Assembly: GCA_963768425.1 (NCBI GenBank)
Contig: CAVYHV010000014.1
Location: 160,001 to 224,000, forward strand
Length of the DNA: 64,000 bases
Direction of reading: 5' to 3'
DNA from: Candidatus Bathyarchaeota archaeon
GTDB lineage: Archaea; Thermoproteota; Bathyarchaeia; Bathyarchaeales; Bathycorpusculaceae
In this document: positions 17,020 through 33,022 of the stretch, piece after piece
How positions within the stretch are numbered: the stretch's first letter is position 1
Layout of the letters: each line of letters starts with the position of its first letter
Made by a program: the position numbers and the translations under genes
The notes under the pieces: model-generated
The model's input: the letters and a program-made list of their open reading frames with translations, nothing else
What the model was told of the DNA's origin: nothing
Databases searched by the model: none

Positions 17020-17053
17020 TCCAGCATCACATTAAGTTACATTTATCTGGTTG

Positions 17054-18618: not shown

Positions 18619-18633
18619 ATTCTTTCACCTAAA

Positions 18634-19627: not shown

Positions 19628-20530
19628 TCATCGAATTCGTAGATCCTTTTTTCTTTCTATTAAGTCTGTAATTTCGTCAAATTCGCTAGTGTAGTCTTTG
19701 TGTTCTTTAACCAATCTTTTGAGTCTGTTTTGGTTAAAGTAGCCTTCATAAAATCCGAAGAACATGATCGCAAAGAACCCATACACAAGATAGTTGCCAA
19801 AAGCTGCAACGCCTTGCGAAACAACTAAGAGTAAAATTGGAAAAAGTACACCGAGAGAACCAATATAAGCCGACATTGATCAAATTAGAGCACCCATAAC
19901 ATCAATCTTGTTATCATTTATGCTCTTGGCGAGACCTGCTTTTCGTTCCCAAAGAGTTGATGTATCACTGAAGTCAACTGCACTAAACAGACTATCAAAA
20001 GCTCCAATCGAAATATTGTTTGTTCGACTTTTGAATGCGCTGTTCATTTTTAGATGATAGAACTCTCGATGCTCCTGATATTCACGCTTTATAATTGTAG
20101 CATCAATATACGGTGTCCTTCTAACCATGCGGAAAGCATACTTAACGTTTTCAACAAACTTTTTACCGACCAGTTCTTGTTCAGCTTTTCTTGCAGCACG
20201 TGCCTCATTAAGTATATCTTGTTTTTCTTCTTCCTTCAAAATTTGTTTTTCTTTAGTTGTCATAATTTTGTGCGAAAATCGATGATTGTTAGAACATTTG
20301 TAAATTATAGTAGAAACCGGAGGAGGTACATATAATTCTGCGACTTTTTCTGCGCAATATGGGCAAATATATCCAGAATCGTGCCAATCTGGGTCTTCAT
20401 CTATCTCCTTGTTATTATCTTTCTCCCACTGTTTTATCCAATGCCTTGTTTGTCCCCAGCCACCGCTCAAACTTGGATACAGAACTTTCGAATCTTTTAT
20501 CGCTTGCATGATATCTGCTTCTGTTCGCAC
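19628..20530 (-). CDS. Hypothetical AT-rich zinc-finger/membrane protein (split near 19878)
   Basis: CPYC...CSNNH in 19880-20530; TM helices in 19628-19876. Confidence 0.5.
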
Positions 20531-20719
20531 TTGATTTTTTTCAACTTTTCTATTGTGAGTTCTTCTGGTTTTTCTTCATTCTGTATTGTTTGTTTTCTCT
20601 TCTTTCGTCGCAGACTGTTTTGTTTTGCTCATTTTCTTTTCCTCTACATTTAAATAATATCGTTAAGGAATAGACTTTTTTCTTTTTGGTTATTTGAAAA
20701 AACTAAATTTCCTCTGATC

Positions 20720-20818
20720 TTAACTGCAGCTTGATTCCTCAACCAACAAATTAACACTACGAATTGAGTTCAACCACAAGTTATTCGGATTGCCTTTAAA
20801 ACTAAAAACTGTCCCCAT
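20720..20818 (-). CDS. Possible leaderless 32-aa peptide behind dyad copy 1
   Basis: MGTVFSFKGNPNNLWLNSIRSVNLLVEESSCS; ATG 22 nt from the motif/TATA. Confidence 0.3.
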   Translation of the reverse strand: MGTVFSFKGNPNNLWLNSIRSVNLLVEESSCS

Positions 20819-20839
20819 ACGATCTAATGTTTAAAAAAT

Positions 20840-20876
20840 CTATTTAAACGTCTGTGACTGTTAAGTACCATCCACA
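20840..20876 (-). promoter_or_regulatory. Dyad + TATA promoter element, copy 1
   Basis: TGTGGATGG TACTTA ACAGTCACA GA CGTTTAAATAG. Confidence 0.8.
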
Positions 20877-21047
20877 ATAAGGGTTAGCTCTTATTTTGTT
20901 TCTTTCTTTGCTACAATTTGTTTCTTATACGATTCGCGCAAACAAGAATAACAAGACATTAAGTCTGACCCTCCTTCACCTGAATTACCAAAAAATAGAT
21001 AATGAAAAAATTGAAGTAGGATCAAATTCATTTATAGGCATCGTATA

Positions 21048-21363
21048 TTACGTTTTCTTAATCATCACTGCAATAAGTCCAATTAGTCCTCCGAGAACAA
21101 CAAGCATTCCGCCAAGTCCACCGCCAATGATTCCAACGATTATGAGTACGATTGCCCAAACGATGATGTGTTACGCTTTTTGAGCCAATGATCGCGATGA
21201 TACCACAAATGATAGAAACAATTCCGAAGTAAGCGAAGCCAAACGATATAAATGATCCAAAGTAACTGAAATCATAACCAATGAGCGAAAGCAATCCGAA
21301 AATTACCAGCAGTATTCCGCCAATGAACGCTAAGTAGTAGGCTATTCGAGAAATTTCTGACAT
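21048..21363 (-). CDS. Small Gly-rich multi-TM membrane protein (frameshift near 21170)
   Basis: MSEISRIAYYLAFIGGILLVIFG...; continues WAIVLIIVGIIGGGLGG in another frame; GAGGTGA SD. Confidence 0.7.
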
Positions 21364-21590
21364 ATTCAAATTCACCTCCCTCAATCACTAAGTAAGGGCT
21401 TAAGATTCAGTTTAGGGCAGGCATATCCTGAATTTTAGACGCAAAGCACTTTTCACTTGCTTTGGCTTGAGACGAATTTTGCATAGTCTGACGCCTTATT
21501 GATCATTTTTCCGAAGGAGATATTTTAGGAGCAGAATCTGTGTTGCTTGCAGAATCTTTGTTTGTTGTTTGGTTAACGTTTTTTTTGGCG

Positions 21591-21749
21591 TTATATTCTT
21601 CGTCCTGAAACTAATCGGACAAGTATTATGAGGATGGCGATGACAAGAAGCAACCAAATGATGGCACCAAGATTGAAGAAGACAAAACCAAGAAGCCACA
21701 GAATGATAAGGATTGCAGCAACTACGAAAAGTAAATCAAGTAAGCCCAT
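21591..21749 (-). CDS. lmo0937/DUF5670-like small membrane protein (52 aa)
   Basis: Manual translation MGLLDLLFVVAAILIILWLLGFVFFNLGAIIWLLLVIAILIILVRLVSGRRI; GTGAGGT SD. Confidence 0.8.
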   Translation of the reverse strand: MGLLDLLFVVAAILIILWLLGFVFFNLGAIIWLLLVIAILIILVRLVSGRRI

Positions 21750-21786
21750 TTTTCAAAAACCTCACTTACAATTAACTCGGCAGAGC

Positions 21787-21823
21787 CTATTTTAAGATGT
21801 GTGACTGTGGATAACCAGCCACA
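21787..21823 (-). promoter_or_regulatory. Dyad + TATA promoter element, copy 2
   Basis: TGTGGCTGG TTATCC ACAGTCACA CA TCTTAAAATAG; 38 nt before ATG 21749. Confidence 0.88.
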
Positions 21824-22238
21824 GCTTTAGCGTGTTATTTACTCTTTTGGAATCACAAATGTGAGTTTTTGAATTGTTTCCGGGTTCAATTTATTTCAAA
21901 CGTCAAGATAGTATTTTGTTTGTTTAATTGGCTATAGTTAGATTTTTTGAGAATTTCTTTAATGAAAAGAGAGAAGCAAAAGTCACTATGAAAAACATTC
22001 AACAACTAAGACAATCAAACGCACGAGTTGTTAAATTTAAATATTAAAAAGGTATACCTGAAATTTAGTCATCCGACGAGAATGATTGAAGAATTTTAAG
22101 CTCAAATGAGTTGGACTTGAATTGCGAGAATGCGGTATTTGTAGTTAATTGATCTGCAATAATTGAAAACATGTTAAAAGTGGAGTTAATGCGCCGGCTA
22201 GGAACCGTGTCTGTAACTGACGAATTCTGAGGCTGATC

Positions 22239-22944
22239 TCATAAAGGATTGCGAGCTGATTCTAGGAAAATTCTTTTAAGAATGGTCGCGCCATCGCTTA
22301 CCTTCAATTTTTTCTCTCCAAGTCTCATTCTATACTTAATAGGTACTTCAACAATTCCAAAGCTTCTTCGTTCTACTTCACTATTTAGTTCCACTTCTAT
22401 ATCAAAACCTTTTGACTTTACATGCCAATCTCTTAGGATTTCAGCGCGAATTGCCCGCAGTCCTGTCAGCGGATCTTGCATGTTTACCCCATTGAGTAAG
22501 CTATGAGAGAAAGCTAAAAGCTTGTTTCCCAAATAGAACAAGTTACGCAATGCACTTCTCTTCGGCGTAGCCATTAAACCTGTTTCCGCAAACCATGCCG
22601 ACCTCTGGGTGGTTATCGAGAATCTGGATCATTTTAGGGATATACTCCGCAGGATAAGTGAAGTCCGCATCTGTAACAACAACATAGTCTACATCGGAAT
22701 CTATGTACCTCATAGCTTTCAAGATGGCGTCGCCTTTTCCTAAGCCATCCTGAAATAGAATGTGTGCACCCAAATCTTTGGCAATTTCAACTGTCCGATC
22801 ATTGCTGTGCCCATCAACCACTAAAATCTGGTTAGGATTAATGTTTTGCGAAATCTCCTTTAACGTAAGACCTATACCTTCCTCTTCATTCAACGCTGCA
22901 ATTACGACGTCAGCGGAACATCTACTATCAAACTCTTTACTCAA
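22239..22944 (-). CDS. GT2 glycosyltransferase, DPM1-like (frameshift near 22560)
   Basis: IAALNEEEGI, VVDGHSNDRT, GLGKGDA, TDADFTYP, QDPLTGLRA, GFDIEVE. Confidence 0.9.
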
Positions 22945-23121
22945 TTAGTTCTTCATCTTAAGCTATTTTTCAAGTTAACTGACATGTTTAACCAATTTTT
23001 CTTTTTCAAAAGTGGACTAAAATTACAAAAAAGAGAGTTCGAATGAATAAATTAAGTCTCAACGCTCATTTACCCTTCTTTATGGCTCGTGATTTGAGCT
23101 ACTTTATATATAGTCATTGGC

Positions 23122-23158
23122 AGAGTTAAACTCGTGTGACTGTGAGCTCACACCGACA
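23122..23158 (-). promoter_or_regulatory. Dyad + TATA promoter element, copy 3
   Basis: TGTCGGTGT GAGCTC ACAGTCACA CG AGTTTAACTCT; ~180 nt upstream of the GT2 start. Confidence 0.8.
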
Positions 23159-23242
23159 TTCTGACTTTTATGTTGAGCTAAATAGTCCAAGTGCTGTGAT
23201 GAAACTGAAACTCGAAACTAAAGAAGAAATGATTGCTTCAGA

Positions 23243-24030
23243 TTAGTCTTCAGCTTTTTTCCAGTCGGATTCAAAACCTGTTCTGAGTACGCCTATAAGG
23301 TTGCTGTTGTTTGTCCAAAGAGAAGGACTTTCGCCTAATCCCGTTTCTTTAGAGGTAGTAATCAATGCTTCTTTATCATCAGACATTATGAAGTGATTCA
23401 AAGGTTCACGATGAAACTTGACATGAACCGAAGTGCCATCGATAAGTTTTTTCACTTTTTCTTTGAGCAAAACGTCAGGGCTTTCTCCTTCAAAAATTAG
23501 TCAAATCTGAGCTGCCTTTCTTTATTGCTTGCTTACATTCATCTGAAAACTGAGACAAAATCGGTATAATTCTTGCCTTGTCTGCAATCAACGCGACTTC
23601 TTTTCTCGAGTTTCTAATCAGTTCTGAAGTCTTTGCTAAAATTGCTTTCTTTTCCGCTATCAGTATGTAGATGCTTTCTTCTCCAGGAACCGGCTGTTTC
23701 CAATCCTTAAGGGACAGCCTCTGGACACTACTCCTCATACCCGTCAACCGATCATCAGATTTGTCTTTTTTCTTCCGCCACCAGAAAGCTTAAGGCATCC
23801 GAAATAGGAGTAGCCCGGACCTCAGCTGGTTTACCCATTAATCTTTCAATCAGGCCCATTTTTTCAAGTGACGGCAAAATTCTATAGACGTCTTCTCTGC
23901 GCACTTTTGAAAACTTCGCTACTTGTCCTACCGTAGTTTTTTCCAGCTTAAGTATTGCTAAGTAAACCCTTGCCTGATTAAGACTCAAACCCAAACCAAG
24001 CAAAAGATCCGTGTTTTCATCGTTTGACAT
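23243..24030 (-). CDS. trmB: TrmB-family transcriptional regulator (two frameshifts)
   Basis: LGLSLNQARVYLAIL...SKVRREDVYRILPSLEKMGLIE wHTH; C-terminal FIMSDDKEALI...SLWTNN domain. Confidence 0.88.
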
Positions 24031-24044
24031 TCTCTATTCATGCA

Positions 24045-24069
24045 ATATAAAGATAGCTATCTAATATAT
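24045..24069. promoter_or_regulatory. Palindrome in the trmB upstream region
   Basis: Perfect AGATAGCTATCT (24051-24062) in AT-rich symmetric flanks, 21-32 nt upstream of the trmB ATG. Confidence 0.4.
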
Positions 24070-24552
24070 TTATTCAATTGGTATATCACTCTGCTTGATT
24101 AGGTAGATATCAGATCCAACTAGTCTCATACTAATAGTTTCTTTTTTAAATTTAGTATACTCTGGAAGTGTAGCCATCTTAACTCCCTTAATGATGATCT
24201 CCTTTCCTTCTTTGGTCTTCTTTACTTCTTTCTTAGATAGATCATAGCCATGTGTACGTGCAAATTCCTTTAAATATCGATCAAGTATTGGATAGACCTT
24301 TCTTACCAGTGCTTTCCTCTCTTTCAGATTTAGATTACTAAAGTTCTCTAATTGGAACACTTTCTCAAGGTTTAATCTATAGGCATTCCTTGACATCTTA
24401 CCTACTAGCTTTATAGCAGCAGCTAGATTAGAGTATTTAGGTTCTTTTCCTTTCCTTATAGTCTTTATTGATTCCACAGGTACGATATCAGCGAATAACT
24501 CTTCCTTAAGTTTACTTAGCTGTATCTTTATCTGTAGTGTTATCTGTAGCAT
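24070..24552 (-). CDS. AT-rich, Lys-rich hypothetical protein (foreign-looking)
   Basis: 160-aa ORF with visibly lower GC than neighbours. Confidence 0.5.
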   Translation of the reverse strand: MLQITLQIKIQLSKLKEELFADIVPVESIKTIRKGKEPKYSNLAAAIKLVGKMSRNAYRLNLEKVFQLENFSNLNLKERKALVRKVYPILDRYLKEFARTHGYDLSKKEVKKTKEGKEIIIKGVKMATLPEYTKFKKETISMRLVGSDIYLIKQSDIPIE

Positions 24553-25227
24553 TAATTAAAGAATCAGACTCTAGTCTTTTTTTCTTTTCTCTTCTTTATT
24601 TTTGACATTTCAAAGCCATAGGATACTATTCTCTATACTGTGGTACTTAAGCATATGGATATGGTCTACATTGCTTAGACAACAAATAGAGTATAGAAAA
24701 AGACTCAGGATATTTTACTAAACTGTCGGATCTGTTGTTAAACTACATATCGCGCGCAGCATGTCAGAGGAATTGATCCCTTTCTGCTTTGTTCGCGTGT
24801 CAATATTATGTTCGATGGGAGGAGCACTTTTTCCAGTTCTTTGAGACCTTTGAGTACTAAAACACCTCGGGGAGTAATCTCGTAGACAATTCTTCCTTCC
24901 TTTACAGACTCTCTCCAATTAAACCCTGTTTGAATAGAACCTCGACAAATTCACTGAATGTTTTGGAGTTGACGAACCTTTTGCATGCATTTATATCTAA
25001 AATTTTTAGCAATTTTCAGAAAATTGCAAGGCTATATCCGTTTTTCGAATATTTGATTTGTCTTGATTTTGAAGGTTTCTCTTGTTAAAGAAGGAGAAAA
25101 ATTTGCTTAGTAATCTGAAGGAGGTTCAACTAAAATCCGATGGAAAAATTTTGAGACGTGTGTTATAGCAATTTCAGAATTACTTAATCGATTGCTCTAT
25201 TCGATTTAAATAAAAGGGATATTCGGC

Positions 25228-25572
25228 TTACGAGAGTACGAAGCCGATGATTATGCCTATTACGAATCCAATGCTTAGTGGTAGTATGCCTATGATGAGT
25301 GCACCGTATTGATACACAATTGACCCGTATTGAGTTGCATAATTTTTCAACGAACTAAGACTTAAACCGAAAAAGCCGAAGTAGGCAACTACGAAGAGTA
25401 TAATTGCAGCTATAATGGCAATCTTTAGGAATAAATGGATTAGATACCCCACAATCAATCCGACGACAAATATTATTATCATTAAGACAATGGGTGGCAA
25501 ACCACCTATGCTTCCAGAAGTAATAAAATGAAATACTTGATCTATCGCGCCCAAAATCCACAACTCCATCAA
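25228..25572 (-). CDS. Small multi-TM membrane protein (probably leaderless)
   Basis: GLIVGYLIHLFLKIAIIAAIILFVVAYFG...LPLSIGFVIGIIIG, loosely FUN14-like; start 24-27 nt from motif copy 4. Confidence 0.7.
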   Translation of the reverse strand: MMELWILGAIDQVFHFITSGSIGGLPPIVLMIIIFVVGLIVGYLIHLFLKIAIIAAIILFVVAYFGFFGLSLSSLKNYATQYGSIVYQYGALIIGILPLSIGFVIGIIIGFVLS

Positions 25573-25595
25573 TTAAGTTAATAGAGTTTAAAATA

Positions 25596-25633
25596 GCTAT
25601 TAAACTTGTGTGAGCTGTAGCCCCACATCAACA
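25596..25633 (-). promoter_or_regulatory. Dyad + TATA promoter element, copy 4 (1-nt insertion)
   Basis: TGTTGATGT GGGGCT ACAGCTCACA CA AGTTTAATAGC. Confidence 0.72.
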
Positions 25634-25723
25634 AAGCGTTATGCTGCTTGAAAAGTCAAGGTATGATTCAGAGCCCAAAAACTGTGAGATTATTCTATAA
25701 GCAAAACCTGGTTGATGCTCAAA

Positions 25724-25760
25724 TGTTGCTGTGGCTTCACAGTCACACACACTTAATTCT
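25724..25760 (+). promoter_or_regulatory. Dyad + TATA promoter element, copy 5 (divergent from copy 4)
   Basis: TGTTGCTGT GGCTTC ACAGTCACA CA CACTTAATTCT; 35 nt before ATG 25795. Confidence 0.85.
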
Positions 25761-25794
25761 GCAATAAACGACCTTTAGATGGAAGGTGATAGGA

Positions 25795-25932
25795 ATGCCT
25801 GAAGAGAAGAAAAAAGTTGAAAATGCTGCTGAAAAAACTGGAGAAGCAGTCGGCAAAGGCATCAAGAAAGGTGCTAAAGCAGTCGAGGACTTCGGGAAAG
25901 GAATAAAGAAAGAACTCAAGAAAAAAGAATAA
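25795..25932 (+). CDS. 45-aa hydrophilic amphipathic (LEA/YtxH-like) protein
   Basis: Manual translation MPEEKKKVENAAEKTGEAVGKGIKKGAKAVEDFGKGIKKELKKKE; AGGTGAT SD. Confidence 0.8.
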   Translation: MPEEKKKVENAAEKTGEAVGKGIKKGAKAVEDFGKGIKKELKKKE

Positions 25933-26253
25933 AGACAAAATCTCCTGTGGAAAACCCGAAGAAGCGGCGAATCTTGTAGACTGGACGAGAAACTGGCGAA
26001 AACAATTCTGAGAATACAGTTTAGCGCATAACCTGTTCTTCAGAAAATATTTAGTAGCTGCCACTCGCAGTTTCCTGTTCTTCTTTTCTATACTAGCTCT
26101 TCTTCTTCCTTAAATCGTTTCGGTCGGGGGTCTATCTCTACAGTTTAGACTCAGGCAGCTCATTCTCGATCTCTTTTTTCCAATTCTTCAAGATTTTTGC
26201 AGCGAATGCATACGTAACGCTTCTGGTTTACTTGAGATACTGTTTACCTGACA

Positions 26254-26502
26254 TCAGAGCGTTTCTACTTCAACCTCTTTATCATTCAGCATTCTCATGA
26301 ATCGTCCTCCTTCGTGAACTATCTCTCCTACAATTGCCTTATTGGTCTCCAAGAATAAGTGCCATGCATTTATGCAGGTCTCTATTACCAAGTAAACTTT
26401 CTGATACGATTGAGAAATAACATGCAATCGTATTTCTGCTACTCGATTGTTCAACTCTTCCTGTTTCGTGAAATCCATGGATTTCCCTATAACCTCCGTC
26501 AT
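26254..26502 (-). CDS. Hypothetical protein or fragment
   Basis: 82-aa ORF only. Confidence 0.3.
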   Translation of the reverse strand: MTEVIGKSMDFTKQEELNNRVAEIRLHVISQSYQKVYLVIETCINAWHLFLETNKAIVGEIVHEGGRFMRMLNDKEVEVETL

Positions 26503-26972
26503 TTCAATCAGACTTTTTTTTTATAATTTGCCTGTCCCTATTTGAAATTCCGATTTTTGTACACCAAAGTAGTTGGTAACCTTCAAGGGAAAATTTGCTC
26601 AACAAACATCACCTATACAATACATGTAACTGGCAATTATTAATTAGCTTATTCTTTATTTTCGTTTCACTCTAAATAGTTGTAGTTGGTGCTTTAACCA
26701 CAAGATTACCTGATTTTCAGCTCGGTGTCGCTTTTTGTTGTTGGCAACAGCAGAATAAACATTGGACTGAGCAGAAGCCCTAACCGGAAACGAATAACCG
26801 TTTCGTTACAATTTATAGAAAACCATTGAGAATACCCTTCAGGGCTTGTAACTTCTTGAAAAAATCGCAAGTTTTTCTTCTGAATAAAAGCATAAGCATC
26901 AGAATCTCCAATAGTCCCCTGCTCGGCCGCAAAAAACAGAAAACAAAAAGCTGCTAAACTACAACAGTTTAA

Positions 26973-27790
26973 TTGAATGTCTGGGAGAAAGGCCACTTGG
27001 CGATTATTGCTGTTTCAGACTTGCACCTAGGATTCGATGCCTCTGACAAGGCTGCGTTTACCCGCTTCCTCGGAAACCTTCAATCCGACCCCAGCGTTAC
27101 AGACCTCGTCCTTCTCGGCGACATCGTGGACATGTGGAGACGAGATTCATCAGGCATTTTCCTCGAGAACCATGATGTTCTCGACCTTATCAACGAACTA
27201 CAAGAAGAAGATGCGCATATATTACGTTGCAGGAAACAATGATTTCCACGTCCGCAAGCTACAAGGCCTAGGATACCCAATCAACTTCATTAATGGACCT
27301 GAAGCTTCAGCAAGACGGCCTGAATCGCAGGTTTGTTCACGGCTGGGAGTTTGACGAGATGCAGAGGAAGCACTTCATGGAATCGCTGTGCCACTCAATG
27401 TCTGATCAGAAGGGCGAACGCGACACTAACATTTGGGCTGCTCTTGGCCGTTACGAAAATGACCTGTCTCGTTTTTTCTCCATGATTGATCGGGGAAGAA
27501 AACGCCAAATCGCTGAGATGTTCCGGCTAGGTCCAGAGCAGAGGCTCATAGAAAACCTGAAAGGTGTAGAAAGAAAGGCCCGTTCCACAGTTCAGCCCAG
27601 GGAAGTTCTTGTCTTCGGGCACACCCACAGACCCTTCGTGAACAAGGCCGAGAACCTCGCAAATACCGGCTCATGGGTTACAGACTGCGCCTATCCACAA
27701 TACATATGTGCGGATAGAAGGTGGCAAACCCAGGCTATTCGTGTTCAAAGGAGCCGAGATAACGGAAAGAGCCGACATCTAACTATCACT
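26973..27790 (+). CDS. Calcineurin-like metallophosphoesterase (frameshifted, end approximate)
   Basis: VSDLHLG, LLGDIVDMW, YVAGNND, FVHG, VFGHTHRP, ANTGSW spread over three frames. Confidence 0.88.
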
Positions 27791-27844
27791 TCCATTTTTC
27801 TGCGGCTAAGAGTATGCGCGCTGCCCTGTTCTGATATTATGTAT

Positions 27845-28235
27845 TGAAGTAGGCAGGTCTCTTCTATGATCTTGTTTAGGTTGTCTTCTCCAACTTTTCG
27901 GATGAACCTGCTAAGAACACTTCTTGTGTAGCCTTTCTCATCTTTCTTGATTAAACACAGTTTTCTAAGCCTTGGATCGGTGTCGAGTAGGCATGTCATT
28001 TCGCTTAGACTGCGAACACCCTTCATGCACATGACAATGAAGGTTCTGAAAAGTCCCAGGGGATTTCTGGAGGGACTGCCTGGCCCAGAAGAGTGAAAGC
28101 AATCTTTCAAAACGTTTTGTGCAAAAATTAGGTCGATATTTTCAAAGAGAATTTCAAGAATTTTATGTTCATCTTGTCCCGCCAGAATGCAGCGCCTAAG
28201 CTTGGACTCAAACTCGTAAAATACGATAGTCCAAT
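27845..28235 (-). mobile_element. Truncated transposase fragment (DUF772-type N-terminus, IS5/IS1182-like)
   Basis: GPGSPSRNPLGLFRTFIV...RSLSEMTCLLDTD...RSVLSRF; no DDE domain seen. Confidence 0.65.
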
Positions 28236-28269
28236 TACTCTTATTAATTTAAGGACAAGCCAGCGCGCT

Positions 28270-28306
28270 TGTAGTTGTAGTTCTACAGTCACAAACCGTT
28301 AAGTAG
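28270..28306 (+). promoter_or_regulatory. Dyad + TATA promoter element, copy 6
   Basis: TGTAGTTGT AGTTCT ACAGTCACA AA CCGTTAAGTAG; 46 nt before ATG 28352. Confidence 0.85.
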
Positions 28307-28351
28307 AATTGAAAAGACATTGGGTCAGTCATACGAGAGGTGATTGGATAA

Positions 28352-28471
28352 ATGAGGTTTTTGCATAATAACAAAGGTGGTTTAGGTAGTTGGCTCTGGT
28401 CCGCTATTGTAGTAGTAGTATTAATAATAGTTCTTATCGTTGTTTTGAGATTTCTTTTTCATTTGATATAA
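28352..28471 (+). CDS. 39-aa single-TM peptide
   Basis: Manual translation MRFLHNNKGGLGSWLWSAIVVVVLIIVLIVVLRFLFHLI; GAGGTGAT SD. Confidence 0.75.
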   Translation: MRFLHNNKGGLGSWLWSAIVVVVLIIVLIVVLRFLFHLI

Positions 28472-28789
28472 AGGGAAGCTAAGATAAAGATTACAACCTA
28501 ATCTTTAGCTTACCCTATCTGTTTGTTTTTTATGTTGTTGTGTCGTTTTGTGTGTGTGGATTAAATTTTAATCTTTCTCTCTCTGAAACTTACGAATTAC
28601 TAAACTTAACGACGACCTTACTCTCACTGTACTAACCCTTAAGCAAACCCACAACTACACGAAGCGACACCCAAAAGACGGAAAAGACAGTGAGACCTCC
28701 GCTTAGCAGTTGTGCAGTAGTTCTTCGATCTCTTGAAAAACTATTTCAACTGACTATCGGAAGCCTTGAACAGCTGGTTTTACGCTTTG

Positions 28790-28954
28790 TTAGAGTTTTC
28801 TTTTGGCTTTGCCTAAGTCTTCTTCGATTTTCCCTTTTACTTTCTCAGCTTCGCCCTTAATTATTTGACCTGTGTTGCCAGTAATTTTGGCCCCGCCTTC
28901 GCGGATTTTGCCTTGGTCCTTTTTGAGTTTACCTTTAACTTCTTCTTCGCTCAT
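28790..28954 (-). CDS. CsbD-like general stress protein (54 aa)
   Basis: Manual translation MSEEEVKGKLKKDQGKIREGGAKITGNTGQIIKGEAEKVKGKIEEDLGKAKRKL; GGTGA SD. Confidence 0.82.
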   Translation of the reverse strand: MSEEEVKGKLKKDQGKIREGGAKITGNTGQIIKGEAEKVKGKIEEDLGKAKRKL

Positions 28955-28987
28955 AAAATTTCACCAAAAGAATAGAGTCTCTGCGAT

Positions 28988-29024
28988 TTTATTAAGCGTA
29001 TGTGTATGGTGCTTAACACTCACA
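28988..29024 (-). promoter_or_regulatory. Dyad + TATA promoter element, copy 7 (degenerate right arm)
   Basis: TGTGAGTGT TAAGCA CCATACACA TA CGCTTAATAAA; 34 nt before the CsbD-like ATG. Confidence 0.68.
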
Positions 29025-29894
29025 ATGATGAACATAGCCTTCGCAATGTACGCTGATCAACGATTGCTTTTGGGCCTTCCAAAAACTTACATCATAGAAG
29101 GGAAGAAGCCTATTCACGATTAAGCTAATCATCAGAACATATAAACAATAAATAATTTCTGGGTTGACTTGTTCTTTGTCACAACCCGCGGAAGGCCTTT
29201 GCCCTTGCAGTGTACGCTGAGTTAACTACCATCACAATACAAGCGCGCCTATCAGCATAATAAGGCCTGCAGTTAAGGATGAACATAAAGTTAAAGTAAT
29301 AGCATAATAACAATCACCTAAGCTTTCATCAGCAAGATATGCAAATCATCTTATTATTCCGAGAAGTGTTCCGAGACCAAGATACATTATCATGTCCCAA
29401 TTTGTAAAATTGTAAGCACAGAAAGAAACGCCAAGTGCCATTGTGTTAGCGAATGTTATTAGTCTGCGCGCGTGCTCACAATAAATTAACGTTACATACA
29501 ATTACAGAAGTGCGTGCCGGCCTGTTGCAGAATTCCAAAGAAAGAGAGATTTTGATAAATTTAGGTTTATTCTTGATATTCATCTGGATTCTTTTGACAG
29601 GAAGATATTTGATATTCTCAAAGAGAAAGATCAGCTTCTCACCCTACCCGAGTTAGGAGAGGACTCAGAGTTTGCCTTTCAACTGTCATGATCCATCTGG
29701 AGTGGCTTGGTCTAACCATATCTACAGAATATTCTATGATTTGTTTCATAAGTATGAGCGCATTCTCAATTCGTCAGGGAGAAGTCTGCAGTTAAGATTT
29801 CGTTGAGTTGGCGATGCGATTTTGAACCGTTTCGGATAGCTTTTTCCTCAAGTTTTCATCGTCGTGGGTCCATACATTGATCTGGTCAATTCTC

Positions 29895-30569
29895 TTAAGC
29901 TAGTTCTTCATCACCAATAACGTTTATGAACCATCTTTGAAAGTCTTGACGCTGAAAATGAAACGTGACAGACTGAATGGGTACTATTTGGAGTTTTTCG
30001 GCGAACTCAATTGTGTTACTTGCAGTTATTCCAGTATTTTTTCCGAGCGCAATGTAAAATTGAAAGCTTTTTTCAAAGGGAACGGTGTTGATTAGGTTTA
30101 GCGGTAGGAATGGAGTATTCAACTTTTTCCCCAGCTCTATCGCCCATTCCTTCACTCTACCCATGTTCAGATCGTCCATGATGGTTCTATTTTGGCTAAT
30201 CATGCAGCCTCCAAAACCAGCAACGTCAATAAGCTTGAGAGACTTATTTTTAGCCAGTAATTTTTTTTGGTTGGCTTCAGTATTTAGCGCTTTCGCGTCT
30301 TCCTTATTCTCGCATAAGAAATAGAGCGCGACATTTTTGCCTTCAAAGTCCTTCTCCATAAAATCCACAGCTTCGTTGTAAACGCTGTTTCCAGCCCCAC
30401 CGCCAACAATAATGTTTTGGAATGATGCAATGTCCGCTGGACCCTTGCTAAGATCCGCGAGAGTTGCATCCATGTTGTAGGTTGTTTTGAGGGTGTCAGC
30501 TATGGTATGTGCTACTTGTTCATTTAATCCACTTATTGTCGAAAAAACTATTAGGGTTTTTCCCGTCAT
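29895..30569 (-). CDS. Flavodoxin-like domain fused to DUF5752-like domain (C-terminus probably continues past a frameshift)
   Basis: KTLIVFSTISGLNEQVA flavodoxin start; FQFY...SVTFHFQRQDFQRWFINVIGDEELA. Confidence 0.75.
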   Translation of the reverse strand: MTGKTLIVFSTISGLNEQVAHTIADTLKTTYNMDATLADLSKGPADIASFQNIIVGGGAGNSVYNEAVDFMEKDFEGKNVALYFLCENKEDAKALNTEANQKKLLAKNKSLKLIDVAGFGGCMISQNRTIMDDLNMGRVKEWAIELGKKLNTPFLPLNLINTVPFEKSFQFYIALGKNTGITASNTIEFAEKLQIVPIQSVTFHFQRQDFQRWFINVIGDEELA

Positions 30570-30609
30570 TGTTCTTCACTTTCCTTATATCACATTTAAC
30601 ACGCACGCT

Positions 30610-30646
30610 TAATTTTAAGATGTGTGACTGGGAATAAACAGCTACA
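30610..30646 (-). promoter_or_regulatory. Dyad + TATA promoter element, copy 8
   Basis: TGTAGCTGT TTATTC CCAGTCACA CA TCTTAAAATTA; 41 nt before ATG 30569. Confidence 0.88.
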
Positions 30647-30846
30647 CCTGCACTGGCGATTGCGTTAAGTAAGCTTTTTTTATGTTTAGCTTCTGCCCAT
30701 CTTGCGAGTAAGGTTATTGACACCTTCTTGTTTATCATACATGAGCTTCAAACTTTTGTCTTAAATAGCGAAATTAAGTGAATAAGCTAAAATATGCCAT
30801 TAAAATATGTTTGAATATTCTTGCACTATGACTATTTATTCAATTT

Positions 30847-31173
30847 TTAAGATTTCAATTGCTTTCTTATGATGATGAAAAGCGCCAAAAGGAGCAGTGC
30901 GCCAATGACGCCTGAGGTGATACCTGTGATGTACCAAGCTTCCCACGGAGGCATGAAAGTCATAAGGTACTTCAGTGACCCGATGAGGATAAATAGGGAA
31001 GCAGACCCTATGAATGAAATTACCAGGGAAACCAAGATGCTAATAATTACACTTGTTATGAGAATTTTTTTGAGGCGTTTCTTAAGTTCACCCTGTTGTT
31101 CATGTACATATTCTCTTATAACGGCTTTTATCTCATTGAAGAAAGACTCGATAATTTCCTTTATTGTGGGCAA
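30847..31173 (-). CDS. Holin-like/YqjE-like two-TM membrane protein
   Basis: Charged N-terminal helix, then two TMs with the ...MPPWEAWYITG pattern. Confidence 0.6.
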   Translation of the reverse strand: MPTIKEIIESFFNEIKAVIREYVHEQQGELKKRLKKILITSVIISILVSLVISFIGSASLFILIGSLKYLMTFMPPWEAWYITGITSGVIGALLLLALFIIIRKQLKS

Positions 31174-31231
31174 TTAATTCTTCCTTCTTCGTCCAAAGAG
31201 AGCAGATTGTCAGCCAATTCTATCAAAATCT

Positions 31232-31459
31232 TCATTGATTGTGGACGTTTATTGTTCCTTGTGGCTTTGCTGACTTGAATAAATAATATCCGTACAGGAA
31301 CAGGAAGAGTGCTATTACTAAACTGCCTAGTCCTAATGGGAGAACAAGGCTTGTTGCAATGAATTTAAAAACTCTTAAGAGTACTGCAAGTCCAAAAAAT
31401 ACTATCAGAACTGCTAATATACAGATTCCTACACCGCCAATCCAACTTCCAAATCCCAT
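31232..31459 (-). CDS. Small two-TM membrane protein
   Basis: 75-aa hydrophobic ORF with AGGTGG SD, behind the lmo0937-like paralog. Confidence 0.65.
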   Translation of the reverse strand: MGFGSWIGGVGICILAVLIVFFGLAVLLRVFKFIATSLVLPLGLGSLVIALFLFLYGYYLFKSAKPQGTINVHNQ

Positions 31460-31513
31460 ATTTTTCCACCTTTACCCCATTTATTTCTTCTCTTGATTGT
31501 CCAATGTTATTTT

Positions 31514-31666
31514 TTACGTCCTGAAAGCTAGTCGTGCAACTATTATGCTTATGGCTGTGACAGGCAGAACCCATATTATGGTGCCTAGGTTAAAAAAAAC
31601 AAAACCAAGGAGCCAAAAGTTAACAAGTATCCCAGCGACTAAGAAAAGTGAATTAAGTAATCCCAT
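31514..31666 (-). CDS. Second, diverged lmo0937-like paralog (50 aa)
   Basis: Manual translation MGLLNSLFLVAGILVNFWLLGFVFFNLGTIIWVLPVTAISIIVARLAFRT; aligns with 21591-21749. Confidence 0.7.
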   Translation of the reverse strand: MGLLNSLFLVAGILVNFWLLGFVFFNLGTIIWVLPVTAISIIVARLAFRT

Positions 31667-31700
31667 TCCAACGTCTCACTTACCATTAACTTGGTAGAGC

Positions 31701-31737
31701 CTATTTTAAGATGTGTGACTGTGAACAAACAGCTACA
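31701..31737 (-). promoter_or_regulatory. Dyad + TATA promoter element, copy 9
   Basis: TGTAGCTGT TTGTTC ACAGTCACA CA TCTTAAAATAG; 35 nt before ATG 31666. Confidence 0.88.
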
Positions 31738-31779
31738 GTTTCATCACTTTCTCTTTATACTAAGATTAATCTATTAGGC

Positions 31780-31905
31780 CTATCTTGACTTTTGTCTTTC
31801 AGCCCTATCAAGTTTCTTCTTCTTGCGGGCATCTTCTCGCTCTTTCTTTTTTCGAGGCTGAGGTTTTCCCCGATCTTGTTCGCCTGTTTCTCCTTTCTTA
31901 CTCAT
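31780..31905 (-). CDS. 41-aa highly basic protein
   Basis: Manual translation MSKKGETGEQDRGKPQPRKKKEREDARKKKKLDRAERQKSR; AGGAG SD. Confidence 0.6.
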   Translation of the reverse strand: MSKKGETGEQDRGKPQPRKKKEREDARKKKKLDRAERQKSR

Positions 31906-32062
31906 CTAACAATCTCCTTATGATGAAGAAACGGCTGTAAGCTTTGCAATCCCGTTTCTTTTCTTTTGTAATTTAAGTGAATACAGTTTTTTATGAGTTG
32001 TGGCGAAAAGAATCCCTAAGAGCCCAGAAAAACCAAAAAAGAACGTACAATACAAAAGAAAG

Positions 32063-33022
32063 CTAAGAATAAGTTCTTTGATCTGGCAACTCGAGATTTA
32101 GCTGCATTTTCAGCAGCTTGTATCTATTTCTAACGGTAACTTCGGTGACTCCAGCAGCCTCCGCAACCTCTTTTTGCGTTATCTTTTCATTATTTTGAAG
32201 ACAAGCTATGTAGAGTGCCGCTGCAGCCAGGCCCATGGGATCTTTGCCTGCCGAAAATCGTTTTCGTCTAGCATCTGCAAGTATTGTTATGGCAGCGCCC
32301 TGTGTTTTGCCTGAAATTCCGTTTTTCTCGGCAATTTTTGAGACGTATGTCAGTGGATCAGCAATTGGCATGTGAAAGTCGAGTTCTTGCAACAACAGTC
32401 TATAGCAGCGTGCGACATCTTTCTCATCAACAAGGCTTGCTTCAGCTATTTCGTGCAGGCTTCTGGATGCTCCGCTCTTACGGCAAGCTACATAAATTGA
32501 AGCCGCCATGATAGAGTTAATTGACCTCCCTCTCACTAGGCCTTTGTCTAGTGCTTTGCGGTAGATAATAGCCGATTTTTCTTTAGTCGATCGTGGAATG
32601 GAAACTTTACTTGATAAACGTTCCAGTTCAGACATTGCCTGTGCAAGGTTTCGATCGATAGATGAATGCACTCGGCTGCGTATTTGCCATTTCCTAAGAC
32701 GCCACATCTGCAATCTAGTGGAAAGAGGCAGTTTCCTTCCGAATGCATCTCTGTCAACTTGGCTGATCGCAGTGGATAATCCTTTATCATGAACTGAATA
32801 TGATGTTGGCATACCGACGCGGCTTCTTGACGCTTTTTCTTCTTGTGTAAAAGCGCGCCATTCGGGGCCTTTATCTAACATCTGATCGTACAAAACAAGA
32901 CCACAATCGCCACAAATGGTTTCGCCTGTGCCGCAGTCATGGATAAGATTATTGCTTGCGCATTCAGGACACTTATCAGCTAAGTGACTATGAACTTTTG
33001 GGACTTCTATAGTTACACTCAT
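32063..33022 (-). CDS. tfb: Transcription initiation factor TFB
   Basis: CPEC...CGDCG zinc ribbon, GPEWRAF, LVRGRS, GKDPMGLAAAALY, TQKEVAEAAGVTEVTVRNRY. Confidence 0.97.
   Translation of the reverse strand: MSVTIEVPKVHSHLADKCPECASNNLIHDCGTGETICGDCGLVLYDQMLDKGPEWRAFTQEEKASRSRVGMPTSYSVHDKGLSTAISQVDRDAFGRKLPLSTRLQMWRLRKWQIRSRVHSSIDRNLAQAMSELERLSSKVSIPRSTKEKSAIIYRKALDKGLVRGRSINSIMAASIYVACRKSGASRSLHEIAEASLVDEKDVARCYRLLLQELDFHMPIADPLTYVSKIAEKNGISGKTQGAAITILADARRKRFSAGKDPMGLAAAALYIACLQNNEKITQKEVAEAAGVTEVTVRNRYKLLKMQLNLELPDQRTYS

What the first reader, a model, noticed from the sequence alone, without database searches (positions are those of the whole stretch)
21591..31905. Cluster of unannotated microproteins resembling bacterial SigB/RpoS stress genes
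Seen: genes under 60 aa missed by the ORF track, mostly with SD motifs: CsbD-like (28790-28954), two lmo0937-like (21591-21749, 31514-31666), a LEA/YtxH-like amphipathic peptide (25795-25932), a 39-aa TM peptide (28352-28471) and a basic 41-mer (31780-31905). A YqjE/holin-like gene (30847-31173) lies among them. Known: CsbD and lmo0937 are SigB-dependent in Firmicutes and yqjE is RpoS-linked in E. coli. Inference: the archaeon has assembled a similar effector set under its own cis-element, possibly for desiccation, osmotic stress or dormancy.
Basis: partly seen in the sequence, partly recalled or inferred. Interest (0 to 1): 0.78.

Follow-up and report, generated by a model that had tools for sequence, protein, structure and literature searches.

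The report
Palindrome-controlled stress microprotein regulon in Bathyarchaeia
A soil and peat archaeon keeps a cluster of tiny genes like those of bacterial general stress responses, and most of them sit behind the same 26-base palindromic DNA switch next to the promoter, which marks about 58 promoters across its genome.

Summary
The small ORFs are real. All six exist at the stated coordinates. They are conserved in 26-50 of 101 congeneric genomes and evolve under purifying selection, with pN/pS 0.17-0.48 against 0.73-3.96 in the other frames.

Family checks gave mixed results:
- lmo0937/DUF5670 and CsbD are confirmed.
- The YqjE/holin-X match is consistent but below threshold.
- The 'LEA-like' peptide, the 39-aa TM peptide and the basic 41-mer belong to no named family.

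It is a 26-bp palindrome, TTGTnnyTGT-N6-ACArTCACAA, ending 3-5 nt before a TATA box.
- It occurs at 58 sites in the genome, 8 of them in this 10.9-kb cluster where 0.21 are expected.
- Elsewhere it precedes a KGG-repeat (GsiB/YciG-like) gene, a third lmo0937 copy, MsrA and many other small ORFs.
- It is present in 95 of 101 genomes of the genus and nearly absent from the rest of the class.
- The basic 41-mer is not under it (0 of 30).

The binding factor is unidentified; two candidates were rejected. A stress role is inferred, not shown.

The parts
20852..20877 (-). Palindromic operator 1 plus TATA (TTTAAATA). It is followed by a 32-aa ORF with no SD (20720-20818), possibly leaderless; the target is uncertain.
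   Evidence: PWM 23.8 bits; sequence read
21799..21824 (-). Palindromic operator 2 plus TATA (TTAAAATA), 49 nt before the lmoA ATG.
   Evidence: Orthologous promoters carry it in 30 of 30 unique lmo0937 orthologues.
21591..21749 (-). lmoA: 52-aa, two-TM lmo0937/DUF5670 family protein.
   Evidence: NF033488 35.8 bits (cut-off 30) and PF18919 32 bits; pN/pS 0.29
21058..21384 (-). TM108: membrane protein downstream of lmoA. The C-terminus looks frameshifted in the window; orthologues are 108-113 aa. No family match.
   Evidence: a 1-nt difference at 21169 in DNA contigs (table 4)
23134..23159 (-). Palindromic operator 3 plus TATA-like TTTAAC, just downstream of the TrmB-like gene. No clear ORF follows, only a 5-codon ORF and then the GT2 gene at 22944. 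In G197 the equivalent site drives an lmo0937 gene.
23243..24030 (-). TrmB-family regulator gene. In the window it is split over three frames (two frameshifts); in congeners it is an intact 261 aa.
   Evidence: Orthologues in 40 of 101 genus genomes.
25228..25569 (-). TM114: 113-aa membrane protein with no family match; the true start is the ATG at 25569. Its own operator (25606-25631) is degenerate here (5.2 bits, with an extra C in the right arm), but the 16 unique relatives' hits listed carry a palindrome of 9.8-25.5 bits, 11 of them at d=32-35.
25723..25748 (+). Palindromic operator 4 plus TATA (TTAATT), 46 nt before the LEA-like ATG.
   Evidence: 25.9 bits. Conserved at d=44-48 in 25 of 30 genus loci, and a site of >=15 bits lies within 130 nt upstream in 38 of 54 loci of the public collection.
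25795..25932 (+). LEA-like 45-aa lysine-rich amphipathic helix peptide. It belongs to an unnamed family.
   Evidence: No Pfam or NCBIfam match. pN/pS 0.31. Helical moment 0.72, reached by 0 of 500 shuffles. AF2 gives a single helix 3-44, pLDDT 80. 66 representatives at E<=1e-3.
28269..28294 (+). Palindromic operator 5 plus TATA-like TTAAGT, 57 nt before the TM39 ATG.
   Evidence: 23.4 bits; present in 13 of 30 TM39 loci
28352..28471 (+). TM39: 39-aa single-TM peptide with a conserved GGLxGWLW...LRFLF motif.
   Evidence: 26 of 101 genomes; pN/pS 0.48
28790..28954 (-). CsbD-family 54-aa hydrophilic protein.
   Evidence: pN/pS 0.19
29000..29025 (-). Palindromic operator 6 (weaker in this genome) plus TATA (TTAATAAA), 45 nt before the CsbD ATG.
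   Evidence: 15.4 bits on -, 17.7 on +; >=15 bits in 30 of 33 CsbD hits in the genus
29895..30569 (-). Flavodoxin-like plus DUF5752 protein. It is 224 aa here and 258-265 aa in congeners; the window copy ends early near 29897.
   Evidence: 1-nt difference at 29897 in all four runs
30622..30647 (-). Palindromic operator 7 plus TATA (TTAAAATT), 52 nt before the flavodoxin/DUF5752 ATG.
   Evidence: 20.0 bits; orthologues 15.6-20.6 bits at d=49-53
30847..31173 (-). YqjE/holin-X-like 108-aa protein: an N-terminal amphipathic segment plus two TM helices. It is the third gene after lmoB and TM75.
   Evidence: PF07332 is the best family in 7 of 7 sequences, E 5.7e-6 to 1e-3, all below the gathering score. 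It has its own palindrome in 5 of the 7 relatives' ORFs listed (L001, L096, L008, L284, L158; 15.9-22.8 bits; d=58-69 in four, 158 in L008).
31232..31459 (-). TM75: 75-aa two-TM protein with no family match.
   Evidence: RNA-library contigs with 0-1 mismatches cover it in 3 runs (table 8).
31514..31666 (-). lmoB: diverged 50-aa lmo0937-like paralogue.
   Evidence: NF033488 20.9 bits, below cut-off
31713..31738 (-). Palindromic operator 8 plus TATA (TTAAAATA), 46 nt before the lmoB ATG.
   Evidence: 20.6 bits
31780..31905 (-). basic41: conserved 41-aa basic peptide next to the TFB gene. It is not part of the palindrome regulon.
   Evidence: 50 of 101 genomes; pN/pS 0.17; palindrome in 0 of 30

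Best explanation
The cluster is the densest island of a genome-wide regulon in a Bathyarchaeia genus.

Each small gene or short operon has its own archaeal promoter. In that promoter a 26-bp palindrome, TTGTnnyTGT-N6-ACArTCACAA (invariant blocks TGT-n3-TG-n8-CA-n3-ACA), ends 3-5 nt upstream of the TATA box, in the place where a BRE would normally lie. A dimeric sequence-specific transcription factor, not yet identified, most likely binds there and switches about 50 promoters together.

The effectors fall into three groups:
- Small hydrophilic or disordered proteins: CsbD, a KGG-repeat protein and a lysine-rich amphipathic helix peptide.
- Small membrane proteins: lmo0937/DUF5670 in three copies, a 39-aa TM peptide, a YqjE/holin-X-like protein, and TM75 and TM114.
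- Repair or redox enzymes: MsrA, a multicopper oxidase and a flavodoxin/DUF5752 protein.

These are the families that bacteria place under sigma-B or sigma-S, so the regulon most likely acts as a general stress or stasis response. In water-table-driven soils the relevant stresses would be desiccation, osmotic stress and oxidative stress.

What is shown: the element, its position, its genome-wide and cross-species conservation, and that the small ORFs are coding.

What is inferred: that a transcription factor binds it; activation rather than repression (I lean to activation, about 55:45, because the site lies upstream of the TATA and replaces a purine-rich BRE); and the stress signal.
For: The element is real:
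- 20 seeds were chosen only by CAGTCACA + N4-6 + TTWA. They show an upstream half TGTnGnTG that was never imposed (0.7-1.5 bits per conserved column).
- PWM hits of 17 bits or more number 108 strand-hits in the real genome, against 6 and 6 in two Markov-1 shuffles, giving 58 unique sites.
- The exact pattern TGTNNNTGNNNNNNNNCARYCACA gives 34 hits against 1 in a shuffle and 0 for the reversed control.

It is a promoter element:
- Only 6 of 58 site centres lie in ORFs of 150 aa or more, although such ORFs cover 68.5% of the genome (P=3e-20).
- A TATA-like box starts 3-5 nt after the 26-mer in 24 of 31 promoters that have an SD-preceded start codon (any of ATG/GTG/TTG), and the start codon follows at 40-95 nt.

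It is a protein-binding site, not a hairpin:
- Arm positions that vary show no excess complementarity: 20 observed vs 21.0 expected, 21 vs 17.1, and 18 vs 23.1.
- Fold z-scores run from -2.7 to 0.
- There is no Rfam match.

It is clustered: 8 sites lie in 10,887 bp where 0.21 are expected (Poisson 9e-11).

Regulon content: KGG PF10685 (1e-13), MsrA PMSR (3.7e-65), TatA, a multicopper oxidase and a third lmo0937 copy. 24 of the 31 first ORFs are 110 aa or shorter.

Conservation of the element in front of orthologues:
- lmo0937: 30 of 30
- CsbD: 30 of 33
- LEA-like: 25 of 30
- KGG: 30 of 30

Phyletic link:
- The pattern is present in 95 of 101 genus genomes, typically at about 10-55 strand-hits, with controls at 0-1.
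- The six genomes with zero hits also lack the KGG gene. The three of them that were searched lack CsbD and lmo0937.
- Outside the genus only G197 (14 hits) and G203 (55 hits) are rich in the pattern. There, lmo0937 (G197; 1 of 4 copies in G203) and CsbD (1 of 2 in G203) again sit behind the palindrome.
- CsbD occurs in only 4 of 121 genomes sampled from the class, and 3 of those 4 are palindrome-rich.

Transcription: contigs from three metatranscriptome libraries cover the LEA-like ORF, the TM39/CsbD interval, TM75 and the flavodoxin/DUF5752 gene.
Against: - No transcription factor was identified. The two candidates in or near the regulon have the wrong phyletic spread: the HTH_45 gene is in 31 of 101 genomes and the TrmB-like gene in 40 of 101, against 95 of 101 for the palindrome.
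- No condition-dependent expression data exist. The RNA evidence is contigs only, may include relatives or carried-over DNA, and shows no transcription starts.
- The PWM was trained on this genome, so the site counts are partly circular. The exact-pattern counts are not.
- The genomes compared are kin, so the conservation counts are not independent events.
- Regulon members include genes with no obvious stress link: a nucleotidyl transferase, a histidine kinase, a response regulator and surface-repeat proteins.
- The site's right arm overlaps the BRE position, which in archaea can equally mean repression.
- Several downstream 'first ORFs' are heuristic calls made without a gene finder.
Confidence: 0.6

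Rival explanations
1. The regulon and its transcription factor are real, but they answer one specific signal rather than acting as a general stress response. Candidate signals are oxygen or redox exposure, a metal, or energy or carbon starvation. On this view the resemblance to sigma-B/sigma-S sets reflects only that small hydrophilins and small membrane proteins are common accessory genes.
For: The regulon includes MsrA, a multicopper oxidase, an F420/NADP oxidoreductase-like gene, a flavodoxin-like gene and three Cys-rich small paralogues that sit behind the highest-scoring sites. That content would fit a redox or oxygen regulon.
Against: Four or five independent hallmark families of bacterial general stress regulons co-occur behind the element: CsbD, KGG, lmo0937, a YqjE-like protein and an LEA-like hydrophilin. 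None of them has a known redox chemistry.
Confidence: 0.25
2. No dedicated transcription factor is involved. The conserved sequence is an extended promoter module, namely a special BRE-like element read by one of the genome's five TFB paralogues. That would be an archaeal analogue of an alternative sigma factor promoter.
For: The promoter-proximal arm CAGTCACA occupies the BRE position at a fixed 3-5 nt from the TATA. G000 encodes five TFB paralogues, one directly beside this cluster and one about 1.2 kb from another site. The proximal and distal arms differ in their preferred bases, although the way sites were oriented biases this comparison.
Against: The distal arm, 16-25 bp upstream of the BRE position, is conserved as the inverted copy: TGT and TG are invariant in 55-56 of 58 sites. 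TFB is not known to contact that region, on my recall of TFB-BRE structures. Many sites are symmetric and serve divergent genes.
Confidence: 0.08
3. The small hydrophobic ORFs (lmo0937-like, TM39, TM75, holin-X-like) are toxin-like or lysis-type peptides of a decaying mobile island, not stress effectors.
For: The region has low GC, 0.36-0.39 against about 0.45 elsewhere. It holds a transposase remnant (DUF772) and several apparently frameshifted genes. The gene order of the island is reshuffled between species. The island's TrmB-like gene is 88% identical to its counterpart in another genus. The best family for one gene is a 'holin' family.
Against: The same operator controls hydrophilic proteins and housekeeping-type enzymes scattered over at least 14 contigs. 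The peptides are under purifying selection in dozens of species. No phage structural or lysis genes are nearby.
Confidence: 0.04

Closest known systems
Sigma-B general stress regulon of Bacillus/Listeria (csbD, gsiB with KGG repeats, lmo0937)
   Same: The same effector families are co-regulated as many small, separately promoted genes: CsbD PF05532, KGG PF10685 and lmo0937 NF033488.
   Different: The control logic differs. Bacteria use an alternative sigma factor with -35/-10 promoters. Here a TATA-box promoter carries a 26-bp palindromic operator, and no sigma factors exist in archaea. That csbD and gsiB are sigma-B targets is recalled, not taken from a call. For lmo0937 I read passages of PMC3225968.
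Sigma-S (RpoS) small-protein network of Salmonella/E. coli (yjbJ, yciG/ymdF, ytjA, yqjE)
   Same: Passages of PMC5437024 list sigma-S-dependent small ORFs: yjbJ (CsbD-like, pdb 1RYK), three KGG-repeat paralogues and a 53-aa two-TM protein. That mix of hydrophilins and tiny membrane proteins matches this regulon. The CsbD profile built here hits YjbJ 1RYK at 5e-9.
   Different: The regulator is of a different kind and the domain of life differs. The YqjE link rests on a PF07332 match below threshold, and yqjE's RpoS dependence is recalled; it is not in the passages I read.
Archaeal TF regulons with palindromic operators near BRE/TATA (TrmB/TrmBL1 TGM motif, Phr, SurR, Ptr2-type activators)
   Same: A dimer-type palindrome sits at a fixed distance from the TATA, and the regulon spans tens of promoters.
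   Different: The sequence and geometry (TGT-n3-TG-n8-CA-n3-ACA, 26 bp) match none of the motifs I recall for these factors. That comparison is from recall and was not tested. The cluster's own TrmB-family gene does not track the element (40 of 101 genomes against 95 of 101).
CRP/FNR-type site TGTGA-N6-TCACA
   Same: The outer half-site words TGTGA and TCACA recur in many copies.
   Different: The spacing between TGTGA and TCACA is about 14 bp, not 6, and each arm has a second conserved TG/CA block. The resemblance is recalled and is only a lead. No CRP-family gene was looked for.

Membership tests
CsbD (PF05532) | Profile match at or above Pfam's gathering score (40 bits) | tested here: inconclusive
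   The window copy scores 32.2 bits, E=1e-7, below the gathering score. All 27 of 27 aligned sequences (window copy plus 26 orthologues) match at E<=1e-3, best 8.6e-14. A congener copy reaches 39.6-40 bits.
CsbD (PF05532) | Homology to structurally solved CsbD-family members (YjbJ, PA4738), and a length of about 50-70 aa | tested here: met
   The profile of the 27-sequence alignment hits 1RYK YjbJ at 5.1e-9 and 1YWW at 3.5e-7 over residues 1-51. Length is 54 aa.
lmo0937 family / DUF5670 (NF033488, PF18919) | Profile match above the curated cut-off; about 45-55 aa with two TM helices | tested here: met
   lmoA scores 35.8 bits against a cut-off of 30, and 32 against 23.5. lmoB alone is below cut-off (20.9 and 19.4 bits), so it counts as a diverged paralogue.
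Phage_holin_3_6 / YqjE-like (PF07332) | Profile match above the gathering score (28.4 bits) | tested here: not met
   The window copy scores 23.4 bits. Six orthologues score 19.6-26.8 bits. PF07332 is the top family in 7 of 7 sequences but never reaches the cut-off. Treat the protein as YqjE-like in architecture only.
LEA / YtxH hydrophilins | Match to any LEA or YtxH profile | tested here: not met
   No Pfam or NCBIfam family at E<=1. The profile is unrelated to the CsbD profile (hhalign probability 0.2%). The Atlas gives only unnamed clusters. The amphipathic-helix character is met.
KGG-repeat stress proteins (PF10685; GsiB/YciG type), outside the window | KGG repeat profile above cut-off | tested here: met
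   G000 C8 79288-79602(-): 51.6 bits against a cut-off of 20.4. Present in 91 of 101 genus genomes. Palindrome upstream in 30 of 30.
Bacterial-type general stress response (system) | One master regulator switching many unrelated protective genes | tested here: inconclusive
   One shared operator at 58 sites is shown. The regulator itself was not found.
Bacterial-type general stress response (system) | Induction by several unrelated stresses or by stasis | not testable with these tools
   Only assembled contigs of three metatranscriptomes were available.
Bacterial-type general stress response (system) | Alternative sigma factor as the regulator | tested here: not met
   The promoters are TATA-box type with an upstream palindrome. 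The genome encodes TFB paralogues. So the system is analogous to the bacterial one, not a member of it.

The most novel reading that the evidence does not exclude
Soil and peat Bathyarchaeia run a true archaeal counterpart of the bacterial general stress response. A single master factor reads a 26-bp operator that replaces the BRE at about 50 promoters. It commands a set of mostly microprotein effectors (CsbD, KGG, lmo0937, a new amphipathic-helix hydrophilin and a new 39-aa TM peptide) that were largely captured from bacteria. The whole module (operator, factor and effectors) has moved between Bathyarchaeia families, which explains its patchy presence: it is in this genus, in G197 and in G203, and in almost none of the other genomes sampled from the class.
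Probability: 0.35. Interest if true: 0.8.

Novelty: new variant of a known kind. Interest (0 to 1): 0.64.

Why it matters
Bathyarchaeia are abundant and uncultured, and nothing is known about how they regulate genes. My searches found no paper joining Bathyarchaeia with CsbD, or with transcription factor, promoter and palindromic.

- A sharply defined operator with tens of sites per genome, conserved across about 95% of a large genus, gives a regulon that can be read directly from metagenomes.
- That regulon can be tracked in metatranscriptomes of drying, flooding or oxygen-exposed peat.
- It is also a case of convergence. The same small protective proteins that bacteria put under sigma-B or sigma-S are wired here to an archaeal TATA promoter through a palindrome.
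- It adds two conserved microprotein families with no name: a 45-aa amphipathic helix and a 39-aa TM peptide.

Tried and rejected
**1. HTH_45 wHTH gene as the factor (G000 C1 47080-47235).**
- For: it has the palindrome 64 nt upstream, and so does its orthologue in G197.
- Against: orthologues occur in only 31 of 101 genus genomes and none was found in G203. Only 2 of 16 HTH_45 paralogues in G000 have a site.
- Outcome: rejected as the universal binder and kept as a regulon member.

**2. TrmB-like gene of the cluster as the factor.**
- Orthologues occur in 40 of 101 genomes. G203 has none; its best match is 27% identical. The gene is frameshifted in this window.
- Outcome: rejected.

**3. RNA or DNA hairpin, or a known RNA family.**
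- No covariation between the arms, weak and inconsistent folds, and no Rfam match at E<=0.1.
- Outcome: rejected.

**4. LEA-like peptide as a distant CsbD relative.**
- hhalign probability 0.2%.
- Outcome: rejected.

**5. ESM Atlas searches.** The LEA-like peptide and basic41 hit only unnamed clusters, or scores of about 0.8. This led nowhere.

**6. Earlier findings of this scan.** Nothing on this genome or these words.

**7. RNA cover.**
- No RNA-library contig lay over lmoA (bin 21576-22019) or basic41 (bin 31788-32231). With contigs, that says nothing either way.
- Contig depths were not used to rank genes.

**8. KGG family in the five handle genomes.** No hit, including in G197 and G203. 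KGG membership of the regulon is therefore shown only within the genus.

**9. Refused script.** The coordinates were then obtained by tblastn from window references, without typing.

Full report
**Observation**

The window is G000:C14:160001-224000. Each ATG is preceded by an SD-like GGTG/GGAG/GTGA.

Profile searches confirm or qualify the family labels:
- 21591-21749(-) is an lmo0937/DUF5670 member above the curated cut-offs. 31514-31666(-) is a diverged paralogue below them.
- 28790-28954(-) matches CsbD at E=1e-7, below Pfam's gathering score. Even so, 27 of 27 aligned sequences (this copy plus 26 orthologues from congeners) hit CsbD. Their profile finds the solved CsbD-family proteins YjbJ (1RYK, 5e-9) and PA4738 (1YWW).
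- For the 108-aa gene 30847-31173(-), the holin-X/YqjE family PF07332 is the top hit in the window copy and in 6 of 6 orthologues. It never reaches the cut-off.
- The 45-aa 'LEA-like' peptide and the basic 41-mer match nothing at E<=1. The 39-aa TM peptide has only hits at E>=0.044, far below cut-off.

**Are they genes?**

Searches covered 100 congeneric species genomes plus G000. They find the LEA-like peptide in 42 of 101, TM39 in 26, CsbD in 49 and basic41 in 50, almost always as open frames.

Pooled Nei-Gojobori pN/pS in frame, against the two shifted frames of the same DNA:

| ORF | In frame | Shifted frames |
|---|---|---|
| LEA-like | 0.31 | 0.74, 1.11 |
| TM39 | 0.48 | 0.88, 1.49 |
| CsbD | 0.19 | 1.21, 1.22 |
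| basic41 | 0.17 | 1.92, 1.14 |
| lmo0937 | 0.29 | 0.73, 3.96 |

So all six are protein-coding and under purifying selection.

The LEA-like peptide has these properties:
- It is strongly amphipathic as a helix: moment 0.72 over 18 residues, reached by 0 of 500 shuffles.
- AlphaFold2 models it as one helix, residues 3-44, with mean pLDDT 80.
- It forms a small family of its own: 66 representatives at E<=1e-3 among 1.84 billion.
- Record titles of 54 loci from the public genome collection are mostly Candidatus Bathyarchaeia or Bathyarchaeota. A few distant copies lie in other archaeal MAGs.

**The cis-element**

Aligning the upstream regions showed a shared sequence. I took genome-wide seeds defined only by CAGTCACA followed 4-6 nt later by TTWA. 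These 20 seeds revealed an upstream half, TGTnGnTG, that had not been imposed. It is the inverted copy of the right arm.

The full element is a 26-bp palindrome, TTGTnnyTGT-N6-ACArTCACAA. Its nearly invariant blocks are TGT-n3-TG-n8-CA-n3-ACA.

Counts:
- A PWM gives 108 strand-hits of 17 bits or more, against 6 and 6 in two Markov-1 shuffles. That is 58 unique sites. The PWM was trained on this genome, so this count is partly circular.
- As an independent measure, the exact pattern TGTNNNTGNNNNNNNNCARYCACA gives 34 hits, against 1 in a shuffle and 0 for the reversed pattern.

Position:
- Only 6 of 58 sites lie inside ORFs of 150 aa or more, although such ORFs cover 68.5% of the genome.
- In 24 of 31 promoters with an SD-preceded start codon, a TATA-like box begins 3-5 nt after the 26-mer. 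The start codon follows at 40-95 nt.

Structure or protein site:
- Variable arm positions show no more complementarity than independent columns predict.
- Predicted hairpins are weak.
- Rfam finds nothing.
- So this is a sequence-specific protein-binding site, not a structure.

**The cluster**

Eight of the 58 sites lie between window 20852 and 31738, where 0.21 are expected (Poisson 9e-11). This is the densest group in the genome. The next densest has four sites, on contig 9 around a third lmo0937 copy.

The sites and their targets:
- lmoA, with TM108 downstream.
- The LEA-like peptide.
- TM39.
- CsbD.
- The flavodoxin/DUF5752 gene.
- lmoB, with TM75 and the YqjE-like gene following on the same strand.
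- A 32-aa ORF.
- A site with no clear target just after a TrmB-family gene.

TM114 has a degenerate copy here, whereas relatives carry clearer copies (9.8-25.5 bits, mostly at d=32-35). The basic 41-mer has no site here or in 30 of 30 orthologous loci.

**The regulon elsewhere**

First genes behind other sites:
- A KGG-repeat protein (PF10685, 1e-13; weak LEA_5 match).
- MsrA (3.7e-65).
- TatA.
- A 765-aa multicopper oxidase.
- An alpha/beta hydrolase.
- An F420/NADP-oxidoreductase-like protein.
- A histidine kinase and a receiver protein.
- An HTH_45 winged-helix gene.
- A weak C2H2 finger.
- Three Cys-rich small paralogues.
- Many unnamed small ORFs.

24 of the 31 SD-supported first ORFs are 110 aa or shorter. 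These ORF calls are heuristic.

**Conservation and phyletic pattern**

The palindrome, at 15 bits or more, stands at the same distance in front of orthologues in other species:

| Gene | Loci with palindrome |
|---|---|
| lmo0937 (first set) | 16 of 18 |
| lmo0937 (unique orthologues) | 30 of 30 |
| LEA-like (genus loci) | 25 of 30 |
| LEA-like (public collection) | 38 of 54 |
| CsbD | 30 of 33 |
| TM39 | 13 of 30 |
| KGG | 30 of 30 |

The other TM39 subgroup carries a different upstream repeat.

Across genomes:
- The exact pattern occurs in 95 of 101 genus genomes, typically at about 10-55 strand-hits, with controls at 0-1.
- The six genomes with no hit also lack the KGG gene, which is otherwise in 91 of 101.
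- The three of those six that I searched lack CsbD and lmo0937.
- In a sample of 120 other genomes of the class, only G197 (another genus of the family, 14 hits) and G203 (another family, 55 hits) are rich in the pattern. The rest have 0-2.
- In G197 an lmo0937 gene sits behind a palindrome. In G203, 1 of 2 CsbD genes and 1 of 4 lmo0937 genes do.
- CsbD is found in only 4 of 121 class genomes, and 3 of those 4 are palindrome-rich.

These genomes are kin, so the counts are not independent events.

**Expression**

The stretch is held, at 0.26-0.37 of sampled words, by runs labelled peat or wetland metagenome. Three metatranscriptome runs hold small shares.

After laying the runs, RNA-library contigs cover these stretches:
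- The LEA-like ORF: 25830-25935.
- 28377-28846: the TM39 ORF through to the 3' end of CsbD, with 1 mismatch.
- TM75: 31244-31503, in three runs, with 0-1 mismatches.
- The flavodoxin/DUF5752 gene.

These are assembled contigs. They show presence in RNA libraries only. They do not show starts, strand or level.

**Mechanism**

The site's geometry has four short blocks centred about 5.5, 10 and 5.5 bp apart. Together with its rigid spacing from the TATA, this points to a dimeric factor that touches the basal machinery.

The site lies upstream of the TATA and replaces a purine-rich BRE. For that reason I lean to activation by recruitment of TBP/TFB. Repression by occluding the BRE is nearly as likely.

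Two candidate factors were tested by phyletic spread and rejected:
- The HTH_45 gene behind a palindrome: 31 of 101 genomes.
- The cluster's TrmB-family gene: 40 of 101 genomes, absent from G203, and frameshifted here.

G000 has five TFB paralogues, one of them beside the cluster. A TFB-specific promoter class is a minor rival. The conserved distal arm argues against it.

**Comparison and novelty**

The effector families are those of bacterial general stress regulons. Passages of PMC5437024 list sigma-S-dependent small ORFs that include yjbJ (CsbD-like), three KGG paralogues and a 53-aa two-TM protein. Passages of PMC3225968 tie lmo0937 to sigma-B and PrfA control.

The control device here is different: a TATA promoter with a palindromic operator. 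The system therefore works like a general stress regulon without being a member of that kind.

Literature searches:
- Bathyarchaeia + CsbD gave no paper.
- Bathyarchaeia + transcription factor + promoter + palindromic gave no paper.
- For CsbD + archaeal I saw only the search listing; nothing in it was relevant.
- The single CsbD passage of PMC3554415 concerns a methanotroph.
- Supplements were not consulted.

**Caveats**

- Several genes in and outside the window differ from congeners by single-base frameshifts: the TrmB-like gene, GT2, a metallophosphoesterase, TM108, the DUF5752 C-terminus, and the HTH_45 gene on C1. These could be assembly indels or decay of an island. This does not affect the small ORFs.
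- The stress role, the direction of control and the regulator all remain inferences.

Noticed in passing
window 23243-24030; 22239-22944; 26973-27847; 21058-21384; 29895-29900; also G000 C1 47080-47240: Many genes are split or truncated by single-base frameshifts relative to intact congeneric orthologues: the TrmB-like gene (2 shifts), GT2, the metallophosphoesterase, TM108, the DUF5752 C-terminus and HTH_45. Contigs of other runs show 1-nt differences at 21169, 27292 and 29897. This suggests either homopolymer indel errors in the assembly or decay of the island.
   Followed up: partly
window 31780-31905 (-): basic41 (MSKKGETGEQDRGKPQPRKKK...) is a strongly conserved 41-43-aa basic peptide. 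It occurs in 50 of 101 genomes with pN/pS 0.17, has its own SD, and carries no palindrome. Here it lies just downstream of a TFB gene. Its function is unknown.
   Followed up: partly
window 32063-33022 (-); G000 C6 148573-149502, C14 25017-25952, C18 25811-26485, C8 144047-144928: G000 has five TFB paralogues. Three are 80-84% identical to the window copy, and two of those have an in-frame stop. One is 46% identical. A TFB family expanded in this way could mean promoter-class specialisation.
   Followed up: no
loci L108, L110, L114-L118, L121-L123, L126, L127 (upstream of TM39 subgroup 2); G000 C4 11419 and C28 45152: A second, different conserved upstream repeat (GTGCTATT..AATAGTATCACGC type) stands 39 nt before the TM39 paralogues that lack the main palindrome. 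Similar words occur at two G000 sites.
   Followed up: no
G000 C1 46645-46884, C14 287703-287876, C3 about 25650-25830: Three paralogous Cys-rich small proteins (about 57 aa, ...HLCKMVEDK...YICKGCMRTAAK...) sit behind the highest-scoring palindromes (27-29 bits). They have no Pfam family.
   Followed up: partly
G197 C54 2002-2784 vs L058 (G044): The island's TrmB-family protein is 88% identical between two genera. It is multi-copy in several congeners, and the gene order of the island is reshuffled between species. This suggests lateral movement of the island.
   Followed up: partly
window about 24050-24063: A perfect 12-bp palindrome, AGATAGCTATCT, lies about 20 nt upstream of the TrmB-like ATG. 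It may be that regulator's own operator and is unlike the regulon palindrome.
   Followed up: no
G000 (16 copies above cut-off), G203 (about 30), G197 (about 14), G097 (about 9), G006 (1), G052 (0): The HTH_45 (PF14947) winged-helix family is greatly expanded in the large-genome lineages. In each of G000, G197 and G203, at least one member sits directly behind a palindrome.
   Followed up: partly
window 27745-28110 (-); window about 14000-32000: There is a DUF772 transposase remnant whose DNA is multi-copy across the genus. The surrounding 18 kb has lower GC, 0.36-0.40 against about 0.45.
   Followed up: no
G000 C14 45046-46083 and C9 15932-16198: A histidine kinase and an 88-aa protein share an N-terminal Cys motif domain (C-x-C...L..P.L.AMN.AI..HV..HKR). 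Both lie behind palindromes.
   Followed up: no
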